The position numbers and the translations under genes are program-made. Source: an uncultured Clostridia bacterium (GTDB taxonomy: Bacteria; UBA6262; WVXT01). Taken from it: a stretch of 64,000 bases of DNA. Shown piece after piece: positions 221-25,290 of the stretch (the first letter of the stretch is position 1; each line of letters opens with the position of its first letter). The notes under the pieces were generated by a model. The model did no database searches. It saw nothing but the letters and a program-made list of their open reading frames with translations, and was not told the DNA's origin. The stretch spans positions 22,183 through 86,182 of the forward strand of contig CAYOFG010000001.1 in NCBI GenBank assembly GCA_964403285.1, in the 5' to 3' direction.

Positions 221-385
221 TGAGTCTGCACCTTTCTACACCTCTATTATTTAGACGATAGAGGCGAGCGAAATGTTACACCTTCCGGTATTTTTTATAC
301 CAAAAAGCACTACGGGACGCTTTAAGCACAGGTGGATGCTTGAGGCATAGGTAGATGCCTGAGGAAGAGCGGTATGTCTAATATC

Positions 386-1435: not shown

Positions 1436-1748
1436 TATAATTCTACCTCCTTTTTCTGTAGTGTAGCCCTTTATGGGCGTATGTTTTATGTGGTAGTATA
1501 GCCCTTTATGGGCGTCCCGATTTATCACGACGGGCATAAAGCCCTACACTACCGAGCGACTCCGAAAACTATCCTAACCTCTTAACATTCCGAGGATGAA
1601 GGGATAGTTACAGGAGCTTCAAATCCGCTAGGTTTTGCCCCAGCGCTGGCGGATTTAGAGCGAGGTTTTACTAACCGAGCGACTCCGAAAACTATCCCTT
1701 CATCCTCTCTTTTTCTAAGATGCTCTAAAAGTTTAGGCACTCTTCTGG
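1436..1748. repeat. Structured, repeat-rich intergenic spacer between the histidine kinase and response regulator
   Basis: A direct repeat (g)tgtagccctttatgggcgt occurs twice (~1461-1480 and ~1495-1515). A variant gggcataaagccctacact follows. The 25-nt unit (t)accgagcgactccgaaaactatcc occurs twice (~1551-1575 and ~1672-1698). An 18-nt sequence gaggatgaagggatagtt (~1592-1609) is perfectly complementary to aactatcccttcatcctc (~1690-1707). An 8-bp helix aaatccgc/gcggattt lies between them. Confidence 0.6.
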
Positions 1749-4160
1749 CTAAATAGAGACTCCCCGTTTTTTCACCGGCATCCTTATGATAAAGGTAGAC
1801 CCTTTTTGCGGCTTTGAGGAGACTTCAATACTACCCTTATGATTCTCAACAATTCTATATACGATAGAAAGTCCCAGACCTGTACCTCTACCAACATCCT
1901 TGGTGGTAAAAAAGGGATCAAATATTTTCCCGATATGCTCCTCAGGTATACCTTTACCATCATCTTTTATTTGCACTACTGCAAAGTCACCTTCTTGATA
2001 GCTCTTTATCGTTATAGTGCCAGATTCTTTAATAGATTTTATTGCCTCTTTAGCATTGATCATTAAATTGGTAAAGACTTGCATCAATTCATTAAAATTC
2101 CCCTCAATTGATGATACCTTCCCTTGCTGTTTGCGGAGATAAATCTTATCCTGGCGCAATTGATATTCTAAAAAGGCATAAGCCCTATCAATAACCCGAT
2201 TCAAATCCAATTCCTCAAAGTTAGCACCGCTTTTCCTTGAGTATTGGAGTAACATCTCTACAATCTCCTTACACCGCCGTGTGCCTTCTTCGATTTCCTG
2301 CAGCATTTTTCTATATGGTTTTGCCTCTATTTCCCTGAGCAGCATCTCTGCATTCAGCAAAATAGAACCTAAGGGAGTGTTGATTTCATGAGCTACCCCG
2401 CCGGCTAACACACCTACAGTGGCCATCTTCTCTGACTGAATTAACTGCGTCTCAGTAGCTTTTAATTTTTTTTGCACACCGTTATGCAAACGGGCATTTA
2501 CCAAGGCTATTGATGCATATTCAGCCAATGATTCCACTAAAGTCAAATCACCAGAAGTAAAAGCATCTACGAGAGATTGTCTGTCGATATAGATTAAGCC
2601 AATAATCTTATTTTTCTCCTCTTTTAAAGGAACACAAACTACTGAGCGGATATCCAGGGCTAAGACACTTTCTGCATTTGCAAAATGGGAGTCATTTTGG
2701 ACATCGGTAACCCAAATTGGTCTCTGCGTCTCCAGGACTTTCTCAGTAATGGTCCGGCTAAAATTTTTGAAAAAAGCGTTTTTCTTTTCATCAAATTTTT
2801 CTTTTGTCCGAATTACCTGGGAATAAGGCTTTCCTGCTTCATCCAGCAGAATAAGAAATCCACGATCAGCATTAGTCACCTTCATTATATACTCAATAAT
2901 ATTGTTTAAAACTGCATTTAAATCCAAATTACTGACTACCAGTTTCATAAATTCATCCAGTATTTCTATTTGTTGGCGTAGTGATGAAGGTGGTTTTTGA
3001 GTTATCTCTGAAGTTATGGATTTCTTCTGCCTCTCCTTCAGAACCTGGCGAGCTTCATTGGCTCGAGATAATTGGAACTGGTTATCAATGATAATAAATT
3101 TAGCCGAGGCCTCTTCTAAGGCTATGGTTGCCTGTTCAAAGTCTTTTAATTCCATATAAAACTTGCCTAACTTTAACTGCGTTATCCCTTCTTCTAAAAG
3201 ATTCCCTTGGGACTGGGCTATCTTAATACCTTGTCTAAAATACCCTTCTGCTCTTTCCAATTGCTTCTCTTTTTGAGCCACCAACCCCTGTAACCTCATT
3301 AGATGGATATGATAATAAGAATCCGGCAATTCTAATTCCGTTTCCAGTCTTTGTTGGGTTTCCTGCAAATACTCTTTGGCTTCGGTTATTTTATCCTGTT
3401 CTAAAAAGACCTCTCCTGTATTATAAAGAGCGGGAATCAATTGTTCCACTTTTTTCTCCCGTCCCAAGGAAACAGCTTTCTCAAGATACGATAATGCCTC
3501 TTCTATTCTTTTTAATTCAAAGGCTGCCTTTCCTAACAACACGTTCCCCTGGACCTGCAAGTTTATATATCCTAACTTAGTAGCCAATTCTAACAACCTA
3601 CTTGCCCATTCCTGGGCTGACTTAAAATCTCCCCGATTCAAGGCATCCCCATCCAAAACGGGCAGAATAGAGACTTCATAGGTTGACGGCTCTTTCAGCT
3701 TTTCCAGACAACTAAAAATCAGGCCTTGCACCTCTTGAACCTGGTGTGTCCTTCCACAAATACCCGAGTAGTCGAGTTTACATTTATTAATCCAGAAGAC
3801 TATATCAGTAAAATCATTTTCCTGTGCTATTTGGTTAGCCTTTTCTAAATATCGACCTTCACCTTTTCTCCCGAATCGACAAAAAGCCTGCTGGTAAAGA
3901 CAACCAGCCATTGCATAAACCCACCAGAATTCCTTATCTCGTTCCCTTTTTCTCTGTTCACAAAGCTCTATCACCTTTTTCATCTGTCCAGAACAGGTCG
4001 TCCCCAACCCATGGTCAAGTAAATCAGGAGCTTGCTTTATCAAATTTTTACAATACGCCAGAAACTTTTTATTTGATCTCCGGATGGCTTTCTTTCCCAA
4101 AAAAGCCACTATCCCTTTTAGCCCCATTCTTGCACTAACTAAATTCTTATCTTTTTTCAT
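1749..4160 (-). CDS. Sensor histidine kinase with N-terminal TPR-like repeats, GAF domain, HisKA and HATPase_c
   Basis: The TPR-like region includes [12 protein letters not shown] and [16 protein letters not shown]. The GAF region includes [19 protein letters not shown]. The HisKA H-box is [10 protein letters not shown]. The HATPase segment includes [11 protein letters not shown]...[11 protein letters not shown]. Confidence 0.8.
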
Positions 4161-4554
4161 ATCGATTCAAAAACTTTCTCAGTAAAATCACATCTTTTTT
4201 ACTTAACTCTACAAAACAGACTCCTGTGCGAAAGATGTCTTTATGCTCCTTTGAAATTGGTTGGCTATAAGCCACCTGTGCTTTTACGTTAACAAATTTG
4301 GATTTAGCAGATTTCACACTCTTATCTTTAGGAGGAAACCCAATTTGGAGATTCATAACTAAGGGGGGTTTATTGCTACCAACAAAACCGATGCCTCGCG
4401 TGCTAATATCCTTAGTTATTGTCTTTATCTTTAGTTGCTTCTTAAATGGAGGTATGGTGATATTATAAATTACTGGGAGAGACATGGCAAATCTACGCGA
4501 GGCTCTCTTTTCAACATTCTTCTGTTTGTTTTTCATAGCCCTCTCCTTTTTCAT
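4147..4554 (-). CDS. PilZ domain protein (c-di-GMP receptor)
   Basis: The RxxxR motif (ASRRFAMSL) and D.S..G motif (KDISTRGIGFV) of PilZ are present. I chose the internal start MKKERAM, which has an AAGGA/AGGAGAG RBS and avoids a 19-nt overlap with the upstream gene. Confidence 0.6.
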   Translation of the reverse strand: MKKERAMKNKQKNVEKRASRRFAMSLPVIYNITIPPFKKQLKIKTITKDISTRGIGFVGSNKPPLVMNLQIGFPPKDKSVKSAKSKFVNVKAQVAYSQPISKEHKDIFRTGVCFVELSKKDVILLRKFLNRYEKR

Positions 4555-4574
4555 TCTGTTTCCTTTCTCAAACT

Positions 4575-4952
4575 TTATAACCAATGTTTCCAATCTAATT
4601 TAGCAATCGTGTCCTTTACAAATTTTCTTATCACTTCCCTATCTTTCTTTTTTAACTCGAGAAATCCAACACCACATCTGTAAGGAGGATAATCATCCCA
4701 ATAATTATCCGAAACATATATCACCTGGCCTAAACTACTTATGGTAACATGAGGCAAAGGCAAGGTTATCTCTAGTTCTAATATTGTTCCAGCATCCAAT
4801 TTCTTCGATATCTTCATCATTATTCCACCCTCGCCAATATTTACACTAACTGCTTTTATTGGCGGGGACTCGGAATCCTTAATCTTGTATTGCACGCCAA
4901 AATCTGTTCTTACCCTAGAGAACCTTCTTCTCTCTTTTACCATTTTAACCAC
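4575..4952 (-). CDS. PilZ domain protein (c-di-GMP receptor)
   Basis: The motifs RRRFSRVR (RxxxR) and VNIGEGGIMM (D/N.S.GG) are typical of the PilZ fold. Confidence 0.6.
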   Translation of the reverse strand: MVKMVKERRRFSRVRTDFGVQYKIKDSESPPIKAVSVNIGEGGIMMKISKKLDAGTILELEITLPLPHVTISSLGQVIYVSDNYWDDYPPYRCGVGFLELKKKDREVIRKFVKDTIAKLDWKHWL

Positions 4953-5144
4953 CTCTTTGATAAAGCAAAACTTCTTATCTTATTTTTAAAATAGACTCCT
5001 CTCAAAATCTTATCCTTCTCATCACTCTATCTTTTGATTCAACCCAGCTATTGGCGAATGCCCAGGAATTTTACGGGAACATCTACCCAAAGGTGTTAGG
5101 CCGCCTTCTGTCTTGTTCTATAATATCCATAGAACAAATTCACC

Positions 5145-5891
5145 TTATAAATCTTGGTTAACGATAATAGTAGCGTTTAAATATGCCTGTTTCATTGAAT
5201 TAGTGAATTTCAAGAATAATCCAGAAGGTTGGCTTAAATCAAAATACATTAGTGAACAGATGTCATCAAACTCAAAGAAGGGCTCAAGTGGTTTTTTTTC
5301 ATCAATATGTTCAACCTGCGAAAATCCCAATTTTTCATAAATCTGACCTGTTTTATATTTATTCCCTTGTATAATGAACGCATCGTTTACTTTGCTTTCT
5401 AAATAATAAGAATATGCTACCGTAAATAAACCCAAACTAACTTTACTTTTTGGATTACGGAATCTTCGATATTCTTCCGCAACAATTAGCCTTGATAGCT
5501 CTATAACTTTTCGGCCTCTGTTACCAAGGTCGTGTAGAATTGCATGGAATGTTTGGGCATGTTTTTCTAAATCTAATTTTTGCAGAAAATTCTCTATTTC
5601 GCCATCATAGTAAAGACCATTTTCTGATAGTACTGTTACTCTAACCCCACCTATCACTTTGCTATTATCCACTGCTATAATATGCATAGAGATGGAGTCC
5701 CATTTTTCTTCAAATCTGCCATCACTTGTGAGAATTTCTTTTGAATAGAGCCCCTCTTCTATATATACTTTGCCCCGTAATATGCACAATTCGTCTAAGT
5801 ATTTTTTCCATAAGCCTGAGTCTCTTATGATTTTCATACCGCCTTGAATAAATTTAGGAAGAGCTGGGTCTAAAATTATAAATTCTACCAT
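5145..5891 (-). CDS. GNAT-fold acyltransferase-like protein (autoinducer-synthase / N-acyl amino acid synthase-like), function uncertain
   Basis: This is a 248 aa protein. The segment ISMHIIAVDNSKVIGGVRV...GRKVIELSRLIVAEEYRR resembles the acyl-CoA/ACP-dependent N-acyltransferase fold. The assignment comes only from visual motif similarity. Confidence 0.3.
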   Translation of the reverse strand: MVEFIILDPALPKFIQGGMKIIRDSGLWKKYLDELCILRGKVYIEEGLYSKEILTSDGRFEEKWDSISMHIIAVDNSKVIGGVRVTVLSENGLYYDGEIENFLQKLDLEKHAQTFHAILHDLGNRGRKVIELSRLIVAEEYRRFRNPKSKVSLGLFTVAYSYYLESKVNDAFIIQGNKYKTGQIYEKLGFSQVEHIDEKKPLEPFFEFDDICSLMYFDLSQPSGLFLKFTNSMKQAYLNATIIVNQDL

Positions 5892-6020
5892 TTCATCTCA
5901 CCGATTTATAGCTCGTATGAGCTAAACCAATAATTACATTAGAATAACATTTTTATATAACCGTTTCAACTCTTTTCTATAGGTAGCTGTATTTTCCCTT
6001 AGATTAGGCAAAATTTTTGG

Positions 6021-8318
6021 CTATTCTTGCTTTCCCTCATTAAGAATCTTAATAAATATATCTACTATATGAGGATCAAATTGTTTTCCTGCACCAGCCA
6101 GAAGCTCTTTTCTTGTTTCTTCTAATGTGAGAGCTTTTCGAAAAAGCCGTTTACTTGTCATAGCTTGATATGCATCCACAACAGCAATTATTCTTGATTC
6201 CAGGGGTATTTCTTCACCTTTTAAACCTTCTAGATAACCTTTTCCATCCCAACGCTCATGATGATAATATACTATATTTGCCATATTTGTAAAATTTTCA
6301 ATTTTTTCAGCAACTTTTTTACTGAAAGTAACATGTGTTTTAATTGTATCCCACTCTTCATTCGTTAATGAACCTGGTTTCGTTAATATATCAACAGGTA
6401 AATAAATTTTGCCAACATCATAAATTAACGCAGCTGTTTCAAGTTCATCTAATTGTCTCTCAGATAAATTTAGCCTCTCTCCAATCTTTCTCGCTAGTTG
6501 TGCATTTTTCACATAGTGGAGACGAGCATACCCTACAATTTCTGTAAGTTTTGTTACTGATTCTATTATAGTTGCTAATGTATCCTTTACTCCTTGCAGC
6601 TGATAAAGTGTATGATAGAGCCCCTTCTTTTCCATTAGTTCCCTATGTGTCCCAATCTCTCTACTCTTACCCTTGTGAAGAACAACGATTTTGTCTGTAT
6701 CAGTAACAGTAGAAAGATGGTGAGCAATAATAATGGTAGTTCTTTTCCTTTTTATTCTTTTCAGAGTATTCCTAATCTCAGTTGTTGTTTCTGCATCAAC
6801 ATTTGCGGTAGCTTCATCAAGAATTATAATTTGGGGATTGAACACACAAGCTCGAGCAAAAGATATTAACTGTTTTTGACCAGTAGATAACTTCGCACCT
6901 GCTTCATACACATTTTCTTTGTAGCCATTTGGAAGCTGGCTTATAAATTTATCAGCCCCGACATAAGTAGCTGCTCTATGGATTTGCTCGCTATCTATTT
7001 TTAAATTTCCCAACCTTATATTATCTTCAATGTTTCCTGAAAACAAAAAAGGCTCCTGTGGAATTATTCCTATTAACGAACGAAGTTGGCTTTTTTGAAT
7101 ATTTCGAATATTAATGCCATCAATTAAAATTTCTCCTTTATTTATTTCGTAAAATCCAGCCAAGAGGTTAATTATCGTTGTTTTACCTGCTCCAGTATAA
7201 CCTACAATACCGATCTGTTCGCCTTTTCGAATTTCAAGATTAAAATTTTCTAACACAAAATTATCATTATTATAAGCAAACCATACATTCTTGAATTCTA
7301 TTTTTCCCTTAAATTCTGGCAAATCAACCTTACCTTGAGGTCTTTCAACCTCAACTTTAGTATCTAACAATCCAAAAATTCTTTCCAAGGAGGCTGTGGC
7401 AGTCTGAAGAACTTTGTTTCCATGTATCAGCTTTTCTATTATACCAAAAAATAAACTCATCGACCCCACGAAGACAAGCAATGCTCCTAAACTTAAAGTT
7501 CCTCTCAGCACTTCTCTTCCTCCATACCATAGGATAAAGCACATAACCATTGCCTTAAAGACCATTGCTATTGGAGAAGTAAGGTTAAGATAAAAAAGAG
7601 AGTGCATACTTGTGTCTGTGTACTTTTTATTTAAATAATTTAATTTATCACTTTGCTTTTTTTCTTGATGAAAAATCTTTATCAAAGAAATACCAGTTAT
7701 ATTTTCTTGAAGAAAAGAACTGATTTGACCGAACCAAGACCTCTTTTCCCTTGTTATTTCTCTATTTTTCTTATTTATCAATAAGACACAAAATCCGAAT
7801 ACAAAAAGTAATATACACGTCATCAAGGTAAGTTGATGATTTTGATAAAATAAGTACCCTGTAATTCCAAAGAAAAAAAGTATATTACCAAAGATATTAA
7901 TGACCGACTCATTTACTACCTGTTTTAAAAGCTGAACATCATTTGTAGCTATGGCCATTAGTTTTCCTATAGGATTCTTATCAAAAAATGACAGGTCCAT
8001 CCTTTGAAGATGAGAAAAGATTTCCATCCTGAGATTAAACATCACATTTTGTCCAATATAACTAGCGAGATAACCCTCCAAGAATCTAAAAATGAGTAAT
8101 AAACAAAGTACAAAAAAATAAATTAAGACTACACCTTTAATCAATCCTAAGAAGTTGTTCTTTAGAACATAAACATCTATAGCTGTTCGTAATAGGTGTA
8201 ATTGAAAAATTCCTAAAAATGCTATACCTGCCTGAAGAAATATAGACACGAGAATAAGAAAACGATAAGGGACCAAATATTTAATAAAATATCTTATTAT
8301 AGACCTTTTATTAGTCAT
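6021..8318 (-). CDS. ABC exporter half-transporter (TMD plus NBD) fused to a C-terminal degenerate HD-GYP domain
   Basis: There are six predicted TM helices. Walker A is GYTGAGKTT. The ABC signature is noncanonical, LSTGQKQL. Walker B is IIILDEATANVD. The C-terminal 190 aa align to HD-GYP but are degenerate: LHYVKNAQLA replaces the GHSxRV region, ALIYDVGK replaces LHDIGK (His to Tyr), HHERWDGKGYL replaces GYP, DAYQAMTSKRLF deviates, and GKQFDP is retained. Confidence 0.75.
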   Translation of the reverse strand: MTNKRSIIRYFIKYLVPYRFLILVSIFLQAGIAFLGIFQLHLLRTAIDVYVLKNNFLGLIKGVVLIYFFVLCLLLIFRFLEGYLASYIGQNVMFNLRMEIFSHLQRMDLSFFDKNPIGKLMAIATNDVQLLKQVVNESVINIFGNILFFFGITGYLFYQNHQLTLMTCILLFVFGFCVLLINKKNREITREKRSWFGQISSFLQENITGISLIKIFHQEKKQSDKLNYLNKKYTDTSMHSLFYLNLTSPIAMVFKAMVMCFILWYGGREVLRGTLSLGALLVFVGSMSLFFGIIEKLIHGNKVLQTATASLERIFGLLDTKVEVERPQGKVDLPEFKGKIEFKNVWFAYNNDNFVLENFNLEIRKGEQIGIVGYTGAGKTTIINLLAGFYEINKGEILIDGINIRNIQKSQLRSLIGIIPQEPFLFSGNIEDNIRLGNLKIDSEQIHRAATYVGADKFISQLPNGYKENVYEAGAKLSTGQKQLISFARACVFNPQIIILDEATANVDAETTTEIRNTLKRIKRKRTTIIIAHHLSTVTDTDKIVVLHKGKSREIGTHRELMEKKGLYHTLYQLQGVKDTLATIIESVTKLTEIVGYARLHYVKNAQLARKIGERLNLSERQLDELETAALIYDVGKIYLPVDILTKPGSLTNEEWDTIKTHVTFSKKVAEKIENFTNMANIVYYHHERWDGKGYLEGLKGEEIPLESRIIAVVDAYQAMTSKRLFRKALTLEETRKELLAGAGKQFDPHIVDIFIKILNEGKQE

Positions 8319-8367
8319 AACCTATACCTTTTTACTTAAAATTGGCTTACCTTGAGATTCTCGTAAG

Positions 8368-10194
8368 TTATACCGTCATAAGTTCCTCTTCTAAAAGTTC
8401 TCTCTTATAAAATGCAGAGTAATACCCTTCTCTCTTGAGTAACTCATTATGCACTCCAGTTTCTACAATCTGCCCATTGATAAGGACTACCATAAGATCA
8501 GCGTTCTTAATTGTGGATATTCTATTAGAGACAAAAATGATGGTGCAATTTTCCATTTCTCTGGTTAAATTTTTCAATATCTCTTTTTCGGTACCAACAT
8601 CTACCTGCGAGAGTGCATTGTCAAGTAATAAAATTTTTGGCTTAATAATTATTGCCCGGGCAATGGCTATCCTTTGTTTTTGTCCTCCGGAAAGAGTGAC
8701 CCCTCTTTCTCCAACCAAGGTTTCATACCCTTGAGGAAATTCATCTATATCTTTCTTGATATCAGCAATAATAGAAACTCTATCCAAAATCTCCTGGCTT
8801 ACTTGGGGTACCCCAAAACAGATATTTTCTTTTATACTTCCCGAAAACAAGAAAGACTCCTGAGGAACATAACCAATATTCGATCTCAAAATCTTTAAGG
8901 GAATCTCTTCGATAGGTTGGTTGTCAATAAAAATCGTTCCTTCCGGCCCATTATATAAACGAGCGATTAAATTAATTAATGTTGATTTGCCTGAACCAAT
9001 CTCACCAATAATTCCTATGCTCTTTCCTCTTTCGAACTTTATATTTATATTTCGAAGAATAACCTTATCTTCCAATGAAAAGGTTAAATTCTTTAATTCT
9101 ATTTCTCCCTTAATGGCGGTTATGTTCTCATTTATTCTTTTGGAATCTTCTATATCGGGCTTGTAGAGGAGTATATCGTTAATCCTCTCCATACAAGCCA
9201 AAGCTTCTTGGAAAAGATTGATTGACACACCAAGGATTAGTATAGGCCAGGTAAGATGGTTCAATTGATAGAAGAAGGCTGCAAAGTTTCCCGAGGTTAT
9301 CTTTCCAGAGATAATAAAACTGCAACCAAGCCATAGAAATATTAGCTGACTCAGACCGATAAGAAACCAGACAGACGTTCCTCCCAGTCCCCAGACTTTA
9401 TGAAGAACCATATTTTTCCTGAAATTTTCCCTGTTAATCTGTTGGTAATTATTGATTTCATTGTCTTCATTAACATATGATTTAACCACTCTTATACCAG
9501 AGAGGTTCTCTTGAACCTTGGCACTGAGGAGCCCAAAATGTTTTTGAACTATCCGTTTATGTTTAAGCACATACTTACTAAATATATATACAGAAATCGG
9601 CACGCCAACAAAGGGGATCAGTAAGTAAAAAAGTAATTCTTTCCCGATTATGTATAAATAGACAAGAGAAATTGGGGCCAAAACTAAATAATTACCCAAA
9701 GCAATGGACGCTTGAGCAAACTCATCGATGCATCTTATATCATCTCCAAGCCTCGCCATAATATCGCCAGTCTCTTGTCGGTGGTAATAAGAGAGCGAAA
9801 GATTCTGCAAGTGACAAAAGAGCCCATTCCTTAAGTCGCCTTCAATTCTCTTTGAGGTAGACATAATTAACAATTGATGGAGGTATATAAAAGGTAGACG
9901 GATAAGATTTACAAAGATATATAATAGGGCGAAAAAAAACAAAATTTTATATTTTGTATCCGTATGGAAATATTCAAAAACTTTTATCAATATATGAGGT
10001 TGGCTGTAGTTTTTGTTAAGGACATTAAAGCCGTTATTGACAATTATCGGCTCGCAAATTTGAATAAGATTGTTAAAAAGCAAGAACAAGAATCCGATAA
10101 CCAAAATCTTCCTATATTTTACGATATATTTCCTTAAAGGCTGGAGAATTGTTATCGTTTTGTTTATGCTTAAATGTTTATGGTTTTCCATCAT
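8368..10194 (-). CDS. ABC exporter half-transporter (TMD plus NBD) with a degenerate Walker B, the probable partner of 6021..8318
   Basis: Walker A is GEIGSGKST. The signature LSGGQKQRIAIARA is canonical. Walker B reads ILLLDNALSQVD, where the catalytic Glu is replaced by Asn. Together with the noncanonical signature in the neighbouring subunit, this predicts a heterodimer with one degenerate ATP site. Confidence 0.75.
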   Translation of the reverse strand: MMENHKHLSINKTITILQPLRKYIVKYRKILVIGFLFLLFNNLIQICEPIIVNNGFNVLNKNYSQPHILIKVFEYFHTDTKYKILFFFALLYIFVNLIRLPFIYLHQLLIMSTSKRIEGDLRNGLFCHLQNLSLSYYHRQETGDIMARLGDDIRCIDEFAQASIALGNYLVLAPISLVYLYIIGKELLFYLLIPFVGVPISVYIFSKYVLKHKRIVQKHFGLLSAKVQENLSGIRVVKSYVNEDNEINNYQQINRENFRKNMVLHKVWGLGGTSVWFLIGLSQLIFLWLGCSFIISGKITSGNFAAFFYQLNHLTWPILILGVSINLFQEALACMERINDILLYKPDIEDSKRINENITAIKGEIELKNLTFSLEDKVILRNINIKFERGKSIGIIGEIGSGKSTLINLIARLYNGPEGTIFIDNQPIEEIPLKILRSNIGYVPQESFLFSGSIKENICFGVPQVSQEILDRVSIIADIKKDIDEFPQGYETLVGERGVTLSGGQKQRIAIARAIIIKPKILLLDNALSQVDVGTEKEILKNLTREMENCTIIFVSNRISTIKNADLMVVLINGQIVETGVHNELLKREGYYSAFYKRELLEEELMTV

Positions 10195-10262
10195 TTTTAT
10201 TGTATCTTTTTTTTACTATTTTCCAGTCTGTATTATTGTTAACTATTAAAGATTCAGATTAA

Positions 10263-11231
10263 CTATACTTTTACATAATTATCGCCAGTGGCGTAAAAGA
10301 CATAGTGTTTTTTATCTACGCGTAATGTAAAACTTTTTACAATACCTAACAGCCACCAAGAAAAATACTCATAACTCATATATAAAAAAAATAAAAACCG
10401 CGGCATCTTAAAAACTTTAGGCCCGAATACGCTGAACTTGAAGAGTTGAGACATTCTGATAAATATTTCGACAAATATTATGTAAAAAGCTATCCAATCA
10501 CCGCAGCGTACATATTTAAGGTAGACTGCTAATCTAGATATCTCATACTGTCTGAATTTATCTATTGCCTCCTTGCCCCATTTTTTTATAGCAAAATGAG
10601 TTACCTTAACCAAAGAAGATTCAAAGATCTGGCAGCCATTTCTTAAGGCTCTATAGGAATAATCATAATCAACATTTCCTGGTAAGGCTGCTCCAGGACC
10701 TAACATTTCGTCAAAACCACCAATCTTTTCGAATAAATCTCTCTTTACAGCCATATTGGCACTAATACCCCTTGCATGAATTTTTGAGTAGGGGCCTCTA
10801 AATAATAAATCCTTTGCGCTATACAAGGGTATAAAACCATCTTTTATGTTATATCCGGGGGGAGCTAGAACACTTCCAAAAACTATAACAATATTGGGGT
10901 CGCGCTGAAAAGTAGAAACTATTTTTTCTATCCATTCATCATCCACAACACAATCGTCGTCGGTAAAAGCGATAATTTCTCCCTGGCAATTTTTTATCCC
11001 AAAATTTTTTGCCTTACCTGCACCTTGAGAACAAATCCTAAAATAACGTATTTTCGGAGATGTCTTGATATATTCATTTACTATCCTTTCTGTTTTATCG
11101 TTACCGCTTTGATCAACAATAACTAATTCGAAATTCGAATAGCTATTTAATCTTATACTACGAATAGCAGTCCCGATGTGCTCCGGCCTATCACGTGTGC
11201 AAATCAAAACAGATACTTTTTGTTGTATCAT
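10263..11231 (-). CDS. Family 2 glycosyltransferase (GT-A)
   Basis: The N-terminus VSVLICTRDRPEHIGTAIRSI...FELVIVDQSGND and the FTDDDCVV DxD region are typical of GT2. Confidence 0.7.
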   Translation of the reverse strand: MIQQKVSVLICTRDRPEHIGTAIRSIRLNSYSNFELVIVDQSGNDKTERIVNEYIKTSPKIRYFRICSQGAGKAKNFGIKNCQGEIIAFTDDDCVVDDEWIEKIVSTFQRDPNIVIVFGSVLAPPGYNIKDGFIPLYSAKDLLFRGPYSKIHARGISANMAVKRDLFEKIGGFDEMLGPGAALPGNVDYDYSYRALRNGCQIFESSLVKVTHFAIKKWGKEAIDKFRQYEISRLAVYLKYVRCGDWIAFYIIFVEIFIRMSQLFKFSVFGPKVFKMPRFLFFLYMSYEYFSWWLLGIVKSFTLRVDKKHYVFYATGDNYVKV

Positions 11232-11248
11232 TGCCTAAATAACTCCCA

Positions 11249-12094
11249 TTAGGGCGTCCTCATAAACTTTAAAATTGCTTGGTTAACACTGTTAGGATGT
11301 GTTTCATGAGGTGCGTGCCCAGCATTGAGAATTATAACTAAATTTGATTTTTTTATCTTTTTTTGAAGCCATTTAGCCGATTCTAATGGATACCATGGAT
11401 CCTTCTCTCCCCAGATAATGAGGACTTTTTTATGAATCGTGTCATTTTTTCTAATGAGCTCTCTAAAATCACATTCGGATCTAACCGCTACTTGAGCATT
11501 TCTCCCCTCCGCTGTTTTCCACATTTTAAATTGTTCATTAACTACTCTATCTGTCACTGCTTCCTGGTCGCAATAGCCTTCTTTTAACAAATCCTCTAAA
11601 ATTTTTTTCCCCCAGTGGATGTTCTTTTTCCCTTGATTAATCTCAGTTAATGCTGTAGAGCGTTTTTGACTGGCTTTAATGCCTTTAACTGTAGGGTAAG
11701 GAGTTATGGAATCAATGATAATGAGTTTATCAACTCTCTTCGGAAACTCCATAGTAAAGGCGAGCGCAATACCTCCACCCCAGGATGCTCCAATAAGCGT
11801 AGGTTTAGCAATTTTTAATGATTGTAAGAATTGGCGAATCTGCTGCGTAAAGAAAGGGCGGCAATAATTGGTTTCGGGTTTATCTGAATTCCCAAAGCCA
11901 ATCAAATCAGGCACATAAAGTCTAAAATACCTGGACAAGGCAGGAATGTTGTTTCGCCAAGTATAATTATCCGTTCCAAACCCATGAATAAGAACGATGG
12001 GTGAACCTTTTCCATAAATTAAATAATGCATTTTGTGACCTAATATATTTACGTATTTATGCTGTCTTTTCATTTTTATCACTTCAAAATTCAA
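11249..12094 (-). CDS. Alpha/beta hydrolase fold protein
   Basis: The oxyanion region IVLIHGFG and a GASWGG nucleophile elbow (GxSxG) are present. Confidence 0.6.
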   Translation of the reverse strand: MNFEVIKMKRQHKYVNILGHKMHYLIYGKGSPIVLIHGFGTDNYTWRNNIPALSRYFRLYVPDLIGFGNSDKPETNYCRPFFTQQIRQFLQSLKIAKPTLIGASWGGGIALAFTMEFPKRVDKLIIIDSITPYPTVKGIKASQKRSTALTEINQGKKNIHWGKKILEDLLKEGYCDQEAVTDRVVNEQFKMWKTAEGRNAQVAVRSECDFRELIRKNDTIHKKVLIIWGEKDPWYPLESAKWLQKKIKKSNLVIILNAGHAPHETHPNSVNQAILKFMRTP

Positions 12095-12108
12095 AATCCC
12101 TAAACTCC

Positions 12109-13020
12109 TTACTCTATCCCATTCCTCCCTTCAGCCTCAAGAAATCCAGCATACTTTGTTTTACTTATTGCTTGCACTATCTCATCATAGTTCTGAATGA
12201 CATCGGACAACCTAACAGTAGATGACATAGTCATCACTGGCTTAACAGGCACAGAGGGTATATTTAAAAAGTCGAAGATTTTATCTAAAGTCCTTTGATG
12301 ATTTTTTGCTCTTAAAACATCGTCCTCGAAAACAATTTCTAGATGAGGCAAGTTTTCTAAAACTTCCTTTTCTTGCGCTAAAAACACTTCTCTTCTCTTC
12401 ATCCCTTCAATAAGATTATTGCAGTCAATGTATGTCTTATCCCCTCTTGATAAGCTATCCTTAGATTTATACTTTTGCTTATTTTTATATTTCTGCAAAA
12501 ATAACAATCGATAAACTTGTTGATGGAAGATATTACGTCTCTTTAAATAGATTATTTTCCAACCCTCTCTATACAACTCCTGGATAAATTGTTTAGGGAC
12601 CTGAATATTTTGGTTATACGTCAGTTGATTTATCTTTATTTTGATGCCGTATATGTCCTTCTTAGAAAGCGCACACATAGCTTTTATAATAGATAGTGGA
12701 AAGAATACATTAAAAAACAAAATTTCATCATCATATTGAAATTGTGGATGTGATCTAAGAAGTTCAGCTAATAATGAGCACCCTGAGCTTCCTTGTGCAA
12801 AGAAAACAATTTTAATAATTGGATTATTTGATTTTCTCAGAAAATGACTTAGATAAACATGTGTTTCTCTAAGTAGGGCGTAGATAAAGAACCTAAAAAG
12901 AAACCACTTGCCTTTCGATTCCAAGACCTGTAAGAAATCGATCCTTTTAGTATTTTTCAAGTAGAATTGTAGTCGAAAATATATCGCTTTAATACATTTG
13001 TCTATTATATTTTTCCTCAT
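12109..13020 (-). CDS. Sulfotransferase-like protein (Stf0/PAPS-dependent family), tentative
   Basis: FFAQGSSGCSLL resembles the PAPS 5'-phosphosulfate-binding loop. YLKRRNIFHQQVY resembles the 3'-phosphate-binding RxxxxS region. Confidence 0.3.
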   Translation of the reverse strand: MRKNIIDKCIKAIYFRLQFYLKNTKRIDFLQVLESKGKWFLFRFFIYALLRETHVYLSHFLRKSNNPIIKIVFFAQGSSGCSLLAELLRSHPQFQYDDEILFFNVFFPLSIIKAMCALSKKDIYGIKIKINQLTYNQNIQVPKQFIQELYREGWKIIYLKRRNIFHQQVYRLLFLQKYKNKQKYKSKDSLSRGDKTYIDCNNLIEGMKRREVFLAQEKEVLENLPHLEIVFEDDVLRAKNHQRTLDKIFDFLNIPSVPVKPVMTMSSTVRLSDVIQNYDEIVQAISKTKYAGFLEAEGRNGIE

Positions 13021-13076
13021 AGTTCATTCTTTATATTTGCCTAATTATATTCCCTTTATGCTAATGATTTTCTCTT

Positions 13077-14486
13077 CTATTCAGAAATATCTTGTCCTGC
13101 CTTTTTAATCCTTCTTCTTTCTGACAACAAATTATCAAAGATCTCAGCAAGCCTCCCGGTTAGCACTTTTCTCTCATATTGTTGGATGAGACTATCATTT
13201 GATTCAAGCCCTAACTGCCCCTTTTTATATTTCTCATACATATCAAGGATTACTCTTTTAGCTTTTTGATAATCAGTTGGCTCAATTACTACACCAGAAC
13301 GTGTATCCTGAATAATACGAGCACAATCGCTATCTTGAGGAACTAAAGCTAAAATAGGTCTTCTTGCTCTTAAATATTCATAGAACTTTGCCGGGATAAC
13401 GTCTTTACCTTGAAAAGGCTTTCCTGTATCTTTCGTTTCGTTTGTCAACAAGAATAAAACGCTGGCACCACAAATATAGGAGAGCGCTTCTTTATGCTCT
13501 AAATAACCCAACATCTGAACACACCCATCTAAGTTGTACTGCTTAACTAATCTTTCCACGAAAGGAAATCTTCCTCCGATAAAAGTAGTCTTAATTTTAG
13601 TTTTTAAATCAGTCCTTTCTTGAAAAAGTAAATTTAATGCAGCAAAAAAATGGTGTGGCGAGCATATTGTTTTTTTGAAATGACCCGTATAGACAATGGT
13701 AAATTGATTAAATATATGCGGAGAAACATCTTTAAACTCTTCTTCGTCATATCCATTGTGAATAAGAAAACAATAAGTGGAATTAAAATTCCTTTTTAAT
13801 GTTTTAATTTCATTTATGATTTTTGGTTCTAAAACAACAAAACGATTAGCTTTTGCCAGTACTTTTCTTTCGAGTTGTATATCTAAAAGCTTGATGGGGC
13901 GAGGGATATGTTCCCAATAATTATAAGCCCAGGGGTCGCGAAAGTCAGCTACCCAAGGGAGGTTATACTTTTTTGCTAATTTCAACGCAATTAGGTGTCC
14001 AACAACACTCGGCGAGGTAGAGTAAATCATATGGATATCGTATCTTTTAATAATGTTTTGTCCTCTTCTTACAGCAAATGGATACCACCCAACCGCAATA
14101 TCGGGAAATACTAAACGTCCCAATATCCACATAATATATTTCCAGATGTATTTAGCTCCTAACAATTTGTAGAATTTATTTCCTTTTAATTCCTTTTCCA
14201 ATACATATACTAACGGCAGCAATGGACTTAGCCAAAAATAGCAATCCGCTTTATAAATTTTAACATTTTTAGGAATCTCGGAACATAGGGAAGTATCCAC
14301 TGGCATAAATATTTTTGTATAACTTCCCCTTTTTATTGTCAAAACAATCGAACTCCACCCAAAAGAAGGTAAATACTTAACAAATTTTAACGTCCGCTGA
14401 GTAGCTACGCCTCCCACGGGTGGAAAACTGGAAGCAATAATCAATACATTTTTCACGTGTCTTCCCTTATCTAAATAATTACGCAA
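13077..14486 (-). CDS. GT-B glycosyltransferase (GT4-like)
   Basis: The N-terminus VLIIASSFPPVGGVATQRTLKFVKYL and the segment GHLIALKLAKKYNLPWVADFRDPW are typical of the GT4 N-terminal domain. Confidence 0.55.
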   Translation of the reverse strand: MRNYLDKGRHVKNVLIIASSFPPVGGVATQRTLKFVKYLPSFGWSSIVLTIKRGSYTKIFMPVDTSLCSEIPKNVKIYKADCYFWLSPLLPLVYVLEKELKGNKFYKLLGAKYIWKYIMWILGRLVFPDIAVGWYPFAVRRGQNIIKRYDIHMIYSTSPSVVGHLIALKLAKKYNLPWVADFRDPWAYNYWEHIPRPIKLLDIQLERKVLAKANRFVVLEPKIINEIKTLKRNFNSTYCFLIHNGYDEEEFKDVSPHIFNQFTIVYTGHFKKTICSPHHFFAALNLLFQERTDLKTKIKTTFIGGRFPFVERLVKQYNLDGCVQMLGYLEHKEALSYICGASVLFLLTNETKDTGKPFQGKDVIPAKFYEYLRARRPILALVPQDSDCARIIQDTRSGVVIEPTDYQKAKRVILDMYEKYKKGQLGLESNDSLIQQYERKVLTGRLAEIFDNLLSERRRIKKAGQDISE

Positions 14487-15425
14487 TTATTTTGATATAT
14501 ATAAACAGTGTGTCTTGTCAATTGGATATTTCAAGCTTTTTATAATCCCGAGTAAAAACCAGTATGTTGAAAAAAAACCTGAACAGAATTTTAATAAGAC
14601 ACATAGTTTAGTAATTAAGAATCTCTCAAACATTGTATACATTATGATCCTATGTGTTCTCATAATAACGATTTTGAAAAATATCAAAAGGGCTACAAAA
14701 TCTAAACATCGCATATGCTTAAAAAGCCAACCTGCTAAACTTATATTAGTCTTTTTTATCGCCAACTCCAACTCTCGCAAATCCTTGATATTGTGCCCTA
14801 AAAAATGAGTTACAATAATTTTCTTAACACACAGAATTTGAAACCCAGCCCTCAAGGCTCTATATGCAAAATCCTGATCTTCACTCGAAAACAAAGGACT
14901 GCCAGGACCTAAAAATATATCAAAACCTCCGAGTGTATTGAAAATATTTCTTTTAATAGACATATTGGCTCCATCTGCAACAAATAGTAATTTTGAAAGA
15001 CGGCCCGATATTTTTCTATCATTTATAAGTTTCCTTGCATATTTTCTCCCCACTAACGCCACATTATCTACCACGCTACCAAACACTATACCTACATCTG
15101 GATTCCTTTGGAAAGCTTCTACTATTTTCTCTATCCAATCTTGATTAACAACACAATCATCATCAGTCGTTGCAATGATATCCCCTGAACTATTTTTGAT
15201 TCCTAAATTGAGTGCTTTTGATTTCCCTTTATCCTTCATATGCAGATATCTTATTCTTCCATCAAGGGATATATATTTTTCTGCTATTTCTTTGCTCTTT
15301 TCATCTGTACTTTGGTCAACTATCAAGAACTCAAAGTCGGGGTACGTATTCTTGAGAATACTATAAATACACGACTGAATAATATCGGGTCTATTGCGGG
15401 TACAAACAAGTACTGTAATTTTCAT
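14487..15425 (-). CDS. Family 2 glycosyltransferase (paralogue of 10263..11231)
   Basis: The gene begins MKITVLVCTRNRPDIIQSCIYSI...FEFLIVDQSTDEKS and contains TTDDDCVV. Its C-terminal half is collinear with the other GT2. Confidence 0.7.
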   Translation of the reverse strand: MKITVLVCTRNRPDIIQSCIYSILKNTYPDFEFLIVDQSTDEKSKEIAEKYISLDGRIRYLHMKDKGKSKALNLGIKNSSGDIIATTDDDCVVNQDWIEKIVEAFQRNPDVGIVFGSVVDNVALVGRKYARKLINDRKISGRLSKLLFVADGANMSIKRNIFNTLGGFDIFLGPGSPLFSSEDQDFAYRALRAGFQILCVKKIIVTHFLGHNIKDLRELELAIKKTNISLAGWLFKHMRCLDFVALLIFFKIVIMRTHRIIMYTMFERFLITKLCVLLKFCSGFFSTYWFLLGIIKSLKYPIDKTHCLYISK

Positions 15426-17243: not shown

Positions 17244-17541
17244 ATTTTGGCTCCTTTATCTTATGTTTTTCACCAAATACAATTGAGCAAACAAATTCAA
17301 CAGAGTCATAGTTCTTTTATGCGCATATATCATTTCCTATAAGTCCACATCACCCGAAATTCAGAAGAATATCTACCTTCCCCGTCTCTTAGCCAGAATT
17401 GATCAGAGGATGGTAACATTTCAGAAATACTAACAGCACCGTTTTATACCAAGTCATTCTTTGGAATATTATGTTGTTAATTTCTCTCCAACCATGCGTA
17501 AGGGAAACCCTGTGTTCTCGCAGTAGTTATTACCCTTCTTA

Positions 17542-25278: not shown

Positions 25279-25290
25279 ATATTCATCCTC

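What the first reader, a model, noticed from the sequence alone, without database searches (positions are those of the whole stretch)
6021..10194. ABC exporter half-transporter fused to a degenerate HD-GYP domain, paired with a partner that has a degenerate ATP site
The 765 aa protein has a type-I exporter TMD plus NBD and ends in an HD-GYP-like domain. The metal-ligating HD histidine is replaced (LHDIGK becomes ALIYDVGK). GYP is GYL. The first His-box and the RPY motif are also altered. The response regulator in the same window has a fully canonical HD-GYP. A catalytically dead HD-GYP would be expected to bind rather than hydrolyse c-di-GMP. That suggests exporter activity gated by c-di-GMP, for example for the glycan made by the adjacent GT cluster. 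The partner half-transporter (8368..10194) lacks the Walker-B catalytic Glu (LLLDN). The fused subunit has a noncanonical signature (LSTGQ). Together this is the pattern of asymmetric heterodimeric exporters with one degenerate site. I am not aware of this fusion being a described architecture.
Basis: partly seen in the sequence, partly recalled or inferred. Interest (0 to 1): 0.75.

Follow-up and report, generated by a model that had tools for sequence, protein, structure and literature searches.

The report
ABC exporter carrying degenerate HD-GYP domain
An uncultivated (probably Omnitrophota) bacterium has a two-subunit ABC export pump with a degenerate copy of a cyclic-di-GMP-degrading domain fused to one subunit, which probably lets the second-messenger network control export directly; no paper I searched describes this arrangement.

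Summary
Both genes are on the minus strand.

- **Fused subunit:** 6021..8318 encodes a 765-aa half-transporter (ABC_membrane, ABC_tran) with a C-terminal HD-GYP domain (Pfam HD_5, E=2.6e-38). The model of that domain matches PmGH, PA4781 and DvhD at TM 0.86-0.89.
- **Partner:** 8368..10194 lacks the Walker-B Glu (N526) and the H-loop His (N557). The fused subunit has an LSTGQ signature. This is the known TmrAB / TM287-288 / BmrCD type of asymmetry.
- **Degeneracy:** In all 13 fused relatives HD is YD, GYP is GYL or GYI, and two further residues essential in PmGH are replaced (D183 to V/A, D308 to Q/Y). Five metal ligands and the dinucleotide-contact residues are kept, and dN/dS is 0.10-0.23.
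- The first His is retained, and RPY is lost only in this one protein.
- **Distribution:** The fusion is rare, with three 50%-identity clusters among 1.84 billion representatives.
- **Transporter swap:** The same YD-type domain, plus a PilZ domain, is fused to an MFS transporter at the syntenic position of a related cassette (acyltransferase, two PilZ genes, GAF kinase).

Most likely the domain is a regulatory pseudo-enzyme that couples export to c-di-GMP. Ligand binding and loss of activity are untested. I rate it a new variant of known kinds.

The parts
8368..10194 (-). Partner half-transporter ABC-A, 608 aa. It is the degenerate-site subunit: Walker B ILLLDN526 (codon 8617-8619), H-loop VSN557R (codon 8524-8526), canonical LSGGQ signature.
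   Evidence: Pfam ABC_membrane and ABC_tran. Motifs. Best bacterial PDB matches are TmrB (342 bits) and BmrC (326 bits). The Walker B Asp-Asn is conserved in the partners in L005-L008, and is Asp-Asp in L064.
6021..8318 (-). Fused subunit ABC-B::HD-GYP, 765 aa plus stop. It is the catalytically competent ABC subunit (E502, H533) with a deviant LSTGQ signature.
   Evidence: The ABC core best matches TmrA (384 bits), TM288 (379 bits) and BmrD (325 bits).
7440..8252 (-). Transmembrane domain of the fused subunit (residues 23-293). This is the fold formerly called type I exporter, now type IV ABC fold.
   Evidence: PF00664, E=3.3e-43.
6588..7307 (-). Nucleotide-binding domain of the fused subunit (about residues 338-577): Walker A 373-380, Q-loop 419-422, LSTGQ 477-481, Walker B 497-502, H533.
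   Evidence: PF00005, E=1e-29. Motifs.
6024..6587 (-). Linker or stalk helix plus the degenerate HD-GYP domain (residues 578-765). Changed residues: V595 (PmGH D183), Y633 (H221), L696 (P286), Q718 (D308). Kept residues: H601, D634, K637, H662, H686, H687, Y695, D715, R724.
   Evidence: HD_5, E=2.6e-38. PmGH E=3e-29. Residue mapping and family counts. Fold TM 0.86-0.89. dN/dS 0.10-0.23.
5145..5891 (-). FeeM-like / GNAT N-acyltransferase. It lies directly downstream of the transporter in the window, L006, L008/L009 and the MFS loci L065/L066. In L007 it lies upstream.
   Evidence: PF21926 and PF13444. Weak match to TIGR03694. 35% identical to the L065 homologue. Synteny.
4575..4952 (-). PilZ protein with RRRFSR and NIGEGG motifs.
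   Evidence: PF07238, E=1.7e-11. Sequence. 42% identical to the PilZ domain fused to the MFS::HD-GYP protein P0279.
4147..4593 (-). Second PilZ protein with canonical RASRR (RxxxR) and DISTRG (DxSxxG) motifs. The true start is probably internal, because relatives are called at 129-130 aa.
   Evidence: PF07238, E=1.7e-6. Sequence. Gene calls in relatives.
1749..4160 (-). TPR-GAF-HisKA-HATPase sensor histidine kinase of the cassette.
   Evidence: A kinase with GAF, HisKA and HATPase domains holds this position in L006, L007, L008 and L065.
386..1537 (-). Response regulator with a canonical HD-GYP domain (RpfG-type). It is the presumed active c-di-GMP phosphodiesterase of the cassette.
   Evidence: Response_reg and HD_5. 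All catalytic residues are present. The gene is present in L007 and L008.
10263..15425 (-). Upstream biosynthetic genes: GT2, alpha/beta hydrolase, unknown 303-aa protein, GT4/GT1, GT2.
   Evidence: Glycosyltransferase-rich neighbourhoods also flank the fusion in L006, L007, L008 and L064, and the MFS version in L065.

Best explanation
The two genes encode an asymmetric heterodimeric ABC exporter of the TmrAB / TM287-288 / BmrCD kind.

- The 608-aa subunit supplies the non-hydrolytic (degenerate) ATP site.
- The 765-aa subunit supplies the hydrolytic site. Its NBD is followed, after a short stalk helix, by a pseudo-enzyme HD-GYP domain.
- This domain keeps the HD-GYP fold. It also keeps one complete metal site (the PmGH 'G-site' ligands D634, H662, H686, H687) and the residues that contact the dinucleotide (K637, Y695, R724, Y/F726).
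- It has lost three residues whose alanine mutants abolish hydrolysis in PmGH: D183 is V, H221 is Y, and D308 is Q.

My reading is that the domain no longer turns over c-di-GMP. It works as a regulatory input that couples the transporter's ATPase and export cycle to the local c-di-GMP pool. It would do so by binding the nucleotide itself, probably together with the two PilZ proteins encoded downstream. That pool would be set by the adjacent GAF histidine kinase and its canonical REC-HD-GYP phosphodiesterase.

The cargo is the product of the surrounding glycosyltransferase and acyltransferase cluster, either a glycoconjugate or an acylated compound.

Shown here: the architecture, the fold, the residue pattern and its conservation, purifying selection, synteny, and the rarity of the fusion.

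Inferred: loss of hydrolysis, ligand binding, the direction of regulation, and the cargo.
For: - **Domain identity and fold:**
- **Asymmetric ABC pair:** N526 and N557 in the partner, LSTGQ in the fused subunit. The subunits match TmrB/BmrC and TmrA/TM288/BmrD respectively. The partner's degenerate Walker B is conserved in four further partners as Asp-Asn and in L064 as Asp-Asp.
- **Active-site pattern:** In 13 of 13 fused homologues H221 is Y, P286 is L/I, D183 is V/A and D308 is Q/Y. In 3 of 13, H189 is G. Among the 120 closest unfused HD-GYP domains, 118 have H at the HD position and 116 have GYP.
- **Experimental basis in PmGH:** D183A, H221A and D308A abolish activity, whereas GYP mutants do not. 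c-di-GMP was captured unhydrolysed in a monomer holding only the G-site Fe (PMC4159591).
- **Selection:** dN/dS of the HD-GYP part is 0.10-0.23, as low as or lower than that of the NBD and TMD in two of the three comparisons.
- **Precedent:** The degenerate HD-GYP domain of DvhD is an experimentally shown c-di-GMP receptor whose preceding stalk helix pivots on binding (PMC13090378). Six of its eight canonical-site contact residues align with identical or conservative residues here (alignment combined).
- **Context:** Two PilZ genes with binding motifs, a GAF kinase and a canonical REC-HD-GYP are conserved next to the transporter.
- **Transporter swap:** In L065/L066 the same cassette carries an MFS transporter fused to the same YD-type HD-GYP domain plus a PilZ domain. 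The transporter-fused domains group together in an NJ tree with 36 of 60 bootstraps.
Against: - No binding or activity data exist.
- Five metal ligands (D634, H662, H686, H687, D715) are invariant. The metal-free receptor DvhD lost these, so a metal-dependent activity may persist. Tyr can ligate Fe(III) in other phosphoesterases (my own knowledge, not tested here).
- RpfG is reported active despite lacking two of the PmGH ligands.
- HD-GYP domains normally act as dimers, but only one copy is present per heterodimer.
- The PilZ, kinase and response-regulator genes are absent near the fusion in the two more distant clades (L004/L005 and L064).
- Two close lineages have disrupted the domain: an in-frame stop in L008/L009 and a frameshift plus internal deletion in L063. 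It is therefore dispensable in some backgrounds.
- The full-length AlphaFold model was too poor to show how the domain sits on the NBD.
Confidence: 0.5

Rival explanations
1. The domain is a docking platform, not a sensor. The degenerate HD-GYP domain does not bind nucleotide in a regulatory way. Instead it recruits partner proteins to the transporter: the PilZ receptors (the real c-di-GMP sensors), the canonical REC-HD-GYP phosphodiesterase as a pseudo-enzyme/enzyme heterodimer, or both.
For: - A PilZ domain is fused directly behind the same YD-type HD-GYP domain in the MFS homologue P0279, and PilZ genes follow the ABC version.
- HD-GYP domains dimerise, yet only one copy exists per transporter, which leaves a free dimer interface.
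- RpfG is reported to act through protein-protein contacts that need the GYP motif (PmGH paper discussion; Galperin and Chou preprint).
- ECA3548 is a known inactivated HD-GYP fused to PilZ domains.
Against: - Strict conservation of buried metal ligands and dinucleotide-contact residues is not needed for a pure docking surface.
- The GYP proline, which is implicated in RpfG partner binding, is the residue lost in the window clade.
- PilZ and REC-HD-GYP genes are not nearby in L004/L005 or L064.
Confidence: 0.2
2. The domain is still an enzyme. The YD variant would keep a dinuclear or mononuclear metal centre, with Tyr633 as an oxygen ligand, and hydrolyse c-di-GMP, pGpG or another nucleotide at the transporter. 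That would create a local sink rather than a sensor.
For: - D634, H662, H686, H687 and D715 are invariant in 13 of 13 fused homologues, and the HHE..DG.GY motif is intact.
- The more basal transporter-fused members P0247 and P0279 still have the D183 equivalent and GYP.
- RpfG lacks two PmGH ligands and is reported active.
- YD, FD and MD variants recur in tandem-HD-GYP proteins.
Against: - H221A, D183A and D308A each abolish activity in PmGH, and all three positions are changed in the window clade.
- One sub-clade has also lost H189. The pattern is stepwise decay: H221 to Y and loss of D308 in all transporter-fused members, then D183 to V/A and P286 to L/I, then H189 to G.
- A canonical REC-HD-GYP enzyme is encoded in the same cassette.
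Confidence: 0.2
3. The domain is an evolutionary relic. The HD-GYP tail would be a decaying remnant of a chance gene fusion with no present function.
For: - The fusion is rare: three 50%-identity clusters among 1.84 billion representatives.
- The domain is interrupted by a stop codon in L008/L009 and is frameshifted and internally deleted in L063.
Against: - dN/dS is 0.10-0.23 across the domain, including the copy separated by the stop codon (0.16).
- Many pocket residues are invariant down to 44% overall identity.
- The same domain type is kept when the transporter class is swapped.
Confidence: 0.04

Closest known systems
Heterodimeric ABC exporters with one degenerate ATP site (TmrAB of Thermus thermophilus, TM287/288 of Thermotoga maritima, BmrCD of Bacillus subtilis; SmdAB/MdlAB-type pairs)
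   Same: - Two adjacent half-transporter genes.
- The first subunit has lost the Walker-B Glu and the H-loop His.
- The second subunit keeps both and has a deviant signature motif.
- These are the best bacterial PDB matches: TmrA 384 bits, TM288 379 bits, TmrB 342 bits, BmrC 326 bits.
- In NCBIfam the fused subunit scores higher on SmdB than on SmdA, and the partner the reverse.
   Different: - None of those transporters carries a signalling domain after the NBD. The closest unfused homologues end at about 586-620 aa.
- Here the Walker-B substitution is Asn. Asp is, to my knowledge, the usual substitution in the characterised pairs.
DvhD of Desulfovibrio vulgaris (PDB 9RBZ, 9RC0): a degenerate HD-GYP domain acting as a c-di-GMP receptor
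   Same: - An HD-GYP fold with a replaced HD dyad that is used as a non-catalytic module attached to a membrane protein.
- A helix preceding the domain transmits the signal.
- TM 0.86-0.87 and rmsd 2.0 A to my model.
- Six of its eight canonical-site contact residues are conserved here.
   Different: - DvhD lost the HD dyad (SQ) and the HH pair (MN) and binds without metal. Here only the His of HD and some peripheral catalytic residues are lost, and five metal ligands are kept.
- DvhD is a homodimeric dCache-PAS receptor that controls a periplasmic protease, not a transporter.
Canonical HD-GYP c-di-GMP phosphodiesterases (PmGH 4MCW, PA4781 4R8Z, RpfG-family REC-HD-GYP)
   Same: - The same Pfam family and fold.
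- The domain belongs to the Y/F (binuclear-type) subfamily, because Y597 aligns with PmGH E185.
   Different: HD is YD, GYP is GYL or GYI, D183 is V/A and D308 is Q/Y. These changes are conserved across the fused family.
Other inactivated HD-GYP proteins (HnoD of Shewanella; ECA3548, a PilZN-PilZ-HD-GYP protein of Pectobacterium; PA2572, the YN-GYP protein of P. aeruginosa; the N-terminal pseudo-domain of V-cGAP3)
   Same: - Degenerate HD-GYP domains with regulatory rather than hydrolytic roles.
- Association with PilZ, as in ECA3548.
- V-cGAP3 (5Z7C) is the best sequence match in the PDB, and it contains a degenerate second copy of the domain.
- The PA2572 comparison rests on my own knowledge.
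   Different: None of these is fused to a transporter, and their substitution patterns differ (SE/QLE, HT/ANE, YN).
Cyclic-dinucleotide control of ABC transporters through an appended domain (c-di-AMP binding to the CBS domains of the OpuCA ATPase; from my own knowledge)
   Same: The concept of a second-messenger-binding domain attached to the C-terminus of an ABC ATPase.
   Different: That case involves an importer, a CBS domain and c-di-AMP. It was not tested here.

Membership tests
Heterodimeric ABC exporter with a degenerate nucleotide-binding site (type IV ABC fold) | Two adjacent genes, each encoding a TMD (ABC_membrane) followed by an NBD (ABC_tran) | tested here: met
   Pfam hits for both ORFs. 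The genes are 49 nt apart on the same strand.
Heterodimeric ABC exporter with a degenerate nucleotide-binding site (type IV ABC fold) | One NBD lacks the Walker-B catalytic Glu and/or the H-loop His | tested here: met
   The partner has ILLLDN526 and VSN557R. The feature is conserved in five further partners.
Heterodimeric ABC exporter with a degenerate nucleotide-binding site (type IV ABC fold) | The other subunit contributes a non-consensus signature motif to the same site and keeps its own catalytic residues | tested here: met
   The fused subunit has LSTGQ, E502 and H533. The signature is LS[TAE]GQ in the relatives and LSEGE in P0247.
Heterodimeric ABC exporter with a degenerate nucleotide-binding site (type IV ABC fold) | Physical heterodimer with asymmetric ATP hydrolysis | not testable with these tools
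   This needs purification and ATPase assays.
HD-GYP domain (Pfam PF13487 HD_5; class II c-di-GMP phosphodiesterase) | Profile match above the curated threshold, and the HD-GYP fold | tested here: met
   131.9 bits against a cut-off of 27.2. TM 0.86-0.89 to 4R8Z, 4MCW and 9RBZ.
HD-GYP domain (Pfam PF13487 HD_5; class II c-di-GMP phosphodiesterase) | HD dyad | tested here: not met
   The dyad is Y633-D634. Y occurs in 13 of 13 fused homologues, against H in 118 of the 120 closest unfused domains.
HD-GYP domain (Pfam PF13487 HD_5; class II c-di-GMP phosphodiesterase) | HHExxDGxxGYP motif | tested here: inconclusive
   HHERWDGKGY is intact, but the Pro is L696 (L or I in 13 of 13). In PmGH, mutants of the GYP motif stay active.
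HD-GYP domain (Pfam PF13487 HD_5; class II c-di-GMP phosphodiesterase) | Full set of metal ligands and catalytic residues (PmGH D183, H189, H221, D222, K225, H250, H276, H277, D305, D308) | tested here: not met
   D183 is V595, H221 is Y633 and D308 is Q718. The other positions are kept.
HD-GYP domain (Pfam PF13487 HD_5; class II c-di-GMP phosphodiesterase) | c-di-GMP phosphodiesterase activity | not testable with these tools
   This needs an enzyme assay.
Degenerate HD-GYP c-di-GMP receptor (DvhD type) | Loss of catalytic residues with retention of the dinucleotide pocket | tested here: met
   Three essential residues are replaced. Y597, L651, Y695, M720, R724 and F/Y726 align with DvhD Y523, L577, Y621, M646, R650 and Y652. 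E668 and K582 are not conserved.
Degenerate HD-GYP c-di-GMP receptor (DvhD type) | Metal-independent binding of c-di-GMP without turnover | not testable with these tools
   Unlike DvhD, five metal ligands are conserved here. Binding has not been measured.
PilZ c-di-GMP receptors (the neighbouring genes) | RxxxR and [D/N]xSxxG motifs | tested here: met
   4147-4593 has RASRR and DISTRG. 4575-4952 has RRRFSR and NIGEGG, with Gly in place of the Ser.

The most novel reading that the evidence does not exclude
A small clade of 'YD-type' HD-GYP pseudo-enzymes has become a portable, transporter-embedded second-messenger sensor. It is fused to the C-terminus of either an ABC heterodimer or an MFS transporter in the same Omnitrophota cassette. 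It binds c-di-GMP, alone or with PilZ partners, at a one-metal site without hydrolysing it, and it directly gates export of a surface glycoconjugate or acylated product. This would be the first case of c-di-GMP control wired covalently into a transporter.
Probability: 0.35. Interest if true: 0.78.

Novelty: new variant of a known kind. Interest (0 to 1): 0.6.

Why it matters
c-di-GMP is known to control polysaccharide synthases, adhesin retention and secretion ATPases through PilZ, MshEN and degenerate GGDEF/EAL domains. In the literature I searched I found no transporter that carries its own HD-GYP-derived module.

If the domain senses c-di-GMP, this family would show three things:
- Export steps can be gated post-translationally by the messenger.
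- Pseudo-enzyme HD-GYP domains are a more general class of receptor than the single DvhD example suggests.

The ABC/MFS swap gives a natural experiment for separating the regulatory domain from the transport mechanism. The proteins come from uncultivated Omnitrophota, but they can be tested by heterologous expression.

Tried and rejected
- **Full-length AlphaFold model** (alignment A1, 15 sequences). It was too poor to read the NBD/HD-GYP interface: pLDDT 63.8, pTM 0.40, linker below 50.
- **Word-indexed search with the 186-aa C-terminal domain**. It returned only short proteins and not even the fused family. It could therefore not be used to survey architectures, only to give a background for motif frequencies.
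- **GTDB species-representative scan**. It used only two narrow peptide patterns. It shows that this family is confined to two Omnitrophota representatives, but it is not exhaustive for every possible ABC plus HD-GYP fusion.
- **Exhaustive HMMER search**. Only the best 150 hits are listed, so fusions scoring below about 162 bits would be missed.
- **Split version in L008/L009 as an independent 'Rosetta stone'.** Rejected. It is a single in-frame TAA in the linker of an otherwise collinear gene.
- **P0135 as a second unfused YD protein.** Rejected. It looks like a truncated call of an otherwise canonical domain, with DAFDAM and GYP intact.
- **Promoter and terminator scan** of 300-12200. It found fewer sites than the shuffled controls, so it says nothing about operon structure.
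- **Literature searches** for ABC or MFS plus HD-GYP fusions, c-di-GMP-binding ABC exporters, and Omnitrophota HD-GYP. None was relevant beyond the DvhD paper and the HD-GYP census. Table 3 of the census is an image and could not be searched.
- **Source names** for the clusters of P0001, P0247 and P0005. None is on record. Assigning the window to Omnitrophota rests on named homologues at 68% identity or less. The taxon of L064 (57% GC) is unknown.

Full report
**What is there**

The region holds two co-directional genes on the minus strand, separated by 49 nt.

The upstream gene, 8368..10194, encodes a 608-aa ABC half-transporter with ABC_membrane and ABC_tran domains.

The downstream gene, 6021..8318, encodes a 765-aa protein. 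It has ABC_membrane (23-293), ABC_tran (356-505) and a C-terminal HD_5/HD-GYP domain (605-751; E=2.6e-38, 131.9 bits against a cut-off of 27.2).

The C-terminal 190 aa match solved HD-GYP proteins: V-cGAP3 at 4.7e-34, PmGH at 2.9e-29, PA4781 at 1.8e-26 and DvhD at 1.2e-25. An AlphaFold model of residues 579-765, built with 118 aligned sequences, is confident (pLDDT 91.5, pTM 0.90). It superposes on PA4781, PmGH and c-di-GMP-bound DvhD at TM 0.86-0.89 and rmsd 2.0-2.5 A.

The fusion is real. The identical protein lies on three independent assemblies, and the architecture recurs in MAGs and in a single-cell genome of Candidatus Omnitrophota.

**The ABC pair**

The partner has Walker B ILLLDN526 (Glu to Asn) and H-loop VSN557R (His to Asn), with a canonical LSGGQ signature. 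The fused subunit keeps E502 and H533 but has the signature LSTGQ.

One composite ATP site is therefore degenerate and the other is consensus. This is the pattern of the known asymmetric heterodimers.

Among bacterial structures, the partner is closest to TmrB (342 bits) and BmrC (326 bits). The fused core is closest to TmrA (384), TM288 (379) and BmrD (325). In NCBIfam the fused subunit scores higher on SmdB than on SmdA (334.8 against 263.4 bits), and the partner the reverse (338.6 against 228).

The partner's Asp-Asn is conserved in four further loci. It is Asp-Asp in a distant one. This part of the finding is correct but ordinary.

**The HD-GYP domain is degenerate in a specific, conserved way**

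I mapped residues onto PmGH, using the alignment and the residue roles and alanine mutants in PMC4159591. I then counted each position in 13 fused homologues and in the 120 closest unfused HD-GYP domains.

Positions changed in the fused family:

| PmGH residue | Window residue | Fused family (13) | Closest unfused domains (120) |
|---|---|---|---|
| H221 (the HD His) | Y633 | Y in 13 | H in 118 |
| P286 (GYP) | L696 | L or I in 13 | P in 116 |
| D183 | V595 | V or A in 13 | D in 65 of 102 aligned |
| D308 | Q718 | Q in 10, Y in 3 | D or E in 106 |
| H189 | H601 | H in 10, G in 3 (the 44%-identity clade) | H in 104 of 106 aligned |

Positions kept in all 13 fused homologues: D222 (D634), K225 (K637), H250 (H662), H276 and H277 (H686, H687), Y285 (Y695) and D305 (D715). 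R314 (R724) is R in 10 and K in 3.

In PmGH, D183A, H221A and D308A abolish activity, whereas GYP mutants do not.

RLF in place of RPY is a peculiarity of this protein alone.

The domain is under purifying selection. dN/dS is 0.16, 0.10 and 0.23 against three relatives. The NBD gives 0.17-0.19 and the TMD 0.22-0.31.

**How widespread the fusion is**

I ran HMMER with residues 470-765 against 1.84 billion cluster representatives. Among the best 150 hits, only three combine ABC motifs with an HD-GYP domain:
- the window's own cluster;
- P0013, the 44%-identity Omnitrophota clade;
- P0247, a 790-aa singleton from a 57%-GC contig.

P0247 is again paired with an upstream half-transporter that has a degenerate site (ILILDD, SSNN). 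It sits inside a cluster rich in GT4 and GT2 genes. It has YD and Q at the D308 position, but it still has the D183 equivalent and GYP.

A scan of one genome per GTDB species found the family only in two Omnitrophota representatives. The 51 other loci found were canonical HD..GYP proteins without an ABC part.

The substitutions therefore look stepwise: H221 to Y and loss of D308 in all transporter-fused members, then D183 to V/A and P286 to L/I, then H189 to G.

Two close lineages have broken the fusion. L008/L009 carry one in-frame TAA in the linker, followed by an intact and still constrained HD-GYP ORF. In L063 the domain is frameshifted and internally deleted.

**Genomic context and the transporter swap**

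The cassette in the window reads: glycosyltransferases, alpha/beta hydrolase, GT2, ABC-A, ABC-B::HD-GYP, FeeM-like acyltransferase, PilZ, PilZ, TPR-GAF histidine kinase, REC-HD-GYP (canonical). Much the same cassette, with local variations, is present in L006, L007 and L008.

Both PilZ proteins carry the c-di-GMP-binding motifs. No GGDEF or EAL gene lies in the 64-kb window.

The most informative result came from the closest HD-GYP relative outside the ABC family, P0279 (52% identical in the domain). It is an MFS transporter fused to a YD-type HD-GYP domain, followed by a canonical PilZ domain.

Its two loci are syntenic with the window: GT2 genes, then MFS::HD-GYP::PilZ, FeeM-like acyltransferase (35% identical), a 122-aa PilZ, a 130-aa protein, and a TPR-GAF kinase.

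So the same variant domain is attached to two unrelated transporter classes at the same place in the same cassette.

In an NJ tree of 94 HD-GYP domains, the Omnitrophota ABC-fused group has 58 of 60 bootstraps. All transporter-fused domains (ABC, P0247, MFS) form one group in the base tree, with 36 of 60 bootstraps. That is moderate support for a single origin.

**Mechanism**

What is shown:
- An asymmetric ABC exporter whose hydrolytic subunit ends in a conserved HD-GYP-fold domain.
- That domain has an intact 'G-site' ligand set and intact dinucleotide-contact residues.
- It lacks three residues needed for hydrolysis in the best-studied enzyme.
- It is embedded in a c-di-GMP signalling cassette.

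What is inferred: the domain is a pseudo-enzyme that reads the c-di-GMP pool and modulates the NBD cycle. The pool would be set locally by the GAF kinase and the REC-HD-GYP phosphodiesterase.

Two experimental precedents make this plausible:
- PmGH crystals holding only the G-site Fe captured c-di-GMP unhydrolysed.
[quoted passage not shown] Here the equivalent helix (residues 581-595 in the models) follows the NBD's last helix after only a short break.

Three points count against a simple DvhD analogy:
- DvhD discarded its metal ligands, whereas this family keeps five of them strictly. A metal-dependent function persists, which could be metal-assisted binding or residual or altered hydrolysis.
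- Only one HD-GYP copy is present per transporter, although these domains usually dimerise.
- The fused or adjacent PilZ modules may be the true sensors.

I therefore put about 0.5 on 'regulatory pseudo-enzyme coupling export to c-di-GMP'. I put 0.2 on a pure docking role, 0.2 on retained enzymatic activity and 0.04 on a relic.

The cargo is unknown. The flanking genes suggest a glycoconjugate or acylated product. They include GT2 and GT4 genes, LuxC and LuxE, a heparinase II/III-like protein, a MacB-HlyD-OEP set, and the FeeM-like acyltransferase found in the cassette.

**Comparison with what is known, and novelty**

Each component is known:
- Asymmetric ABC heterodimers.
- Inactivated HD-GYP domains with regulatory roles: HnoD, ECA3548 and, from my own knowledge, PA2572.
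- Since 2026, a degenerate HD-GYP domain acting as a c-di-GMP receptor: DvhD.

The covalent attachment of such a domain to transporters is not mentioned in the HD-GYP census text, which has no occurrence of 'ABC' or 'transporter'. It did not turn up in any other search either. The sources that name these proteins use only generic names.

I rate it a new variant of known kinds, with interest 0.6. A c-di-GMP or ABC-transporter specialist would find the architecture and the ABC/MFS swap noteworthy and directly testable. The family is tiny, however, and the central functional claim is untested.

Noticed in passing
L065:8001-10154 and L066:7700-9853 (protein P0279): An MFS transporter is fused to a YD-type HD-GYP domain and a canonical PilZ domain. 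It sits at the position that the ABC pair occupies in the window's cassette. As far as my searches show, this architecture is also undescribed.
   Followed up: partly
L008:11740-11810 and L009 (proteins P0011 and P0121): In a close relative the fusion is interrupted by a single in-frame TAA at the linker Ser codon, seen in two independent samples. The downstream 163-aa HD-GYP ORF is intact, has dN/dS 0.16, and has GYP rather than GYL.
   Followed up: yes
L063:4340-4653 (protein P0010): In another close relative the HD-GYP part is frameshifted and most of it is deleted. Only the N-terminal helix and the C-terminal tail remain recognisable.
   Followed up: partly
window 15492-31121 (-): There is a long biosynthetic and export cluster upstream of the transporter. 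It contains DUF362, GT2, radical SAM/SPASM, a MacB-HlyD-OEP tripartite pump, an unknown 472-aa protein, a heparinase II/III-like protein, a GT1-like protein, and LuxC acyl-CoA reductase with LuxE acyl-protein synthetase. This suggests a lipid-modified glycan or a glycolipid.
   Followed up: no
window 32554-36258 (-) and L007:15883-21015: The window has a 1234-aa Ser/Thr kinase-AAA_16-TPR protein far upstream and a separate TPR-GAF-HisKA kinase in the cassette. In L007 one 1710-aa protein combines Pkinase, AAA_16, TPR, GAF and HisKA at the cassette position. This could be a fusion or a fission of the sensor.
   Followed up: no
window 1-64000: Every ORF that got a Pfam hit lies on the minus strand, and GC skew is negative in every 2-kb bin (cumulative -5.86). 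The whole 64 kb is a single co-directional block.
   Followed up: no
proteins P0249, P0308, P0252: These proteins have two or three tandem HD-GYP domains. In several of the copies the HD His is replaced by Y, F or M while HH..GYP is kept. H-to-aromatic variants therefore also occur outside the transporter fusions.
   Followed up: partly
L004:2606-10177 and L005:3433-10177: In the 44%-identity clade the fused transporter is followed by a GMC oxidoreductase, a NiFe hydrogenase with its maturation genes, and Tat genes. The PilZ and kinase cassette is absent there.
   Followed up: no
window 12109-13020 (-), 23860-25278 (-), 49711-50937 (-), 60700-61725 (-): These are sizeable ORFs (303-472 aa) with no Pfam hit. 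For the first one there was also no NCBIfam hit.
   Followed up: no
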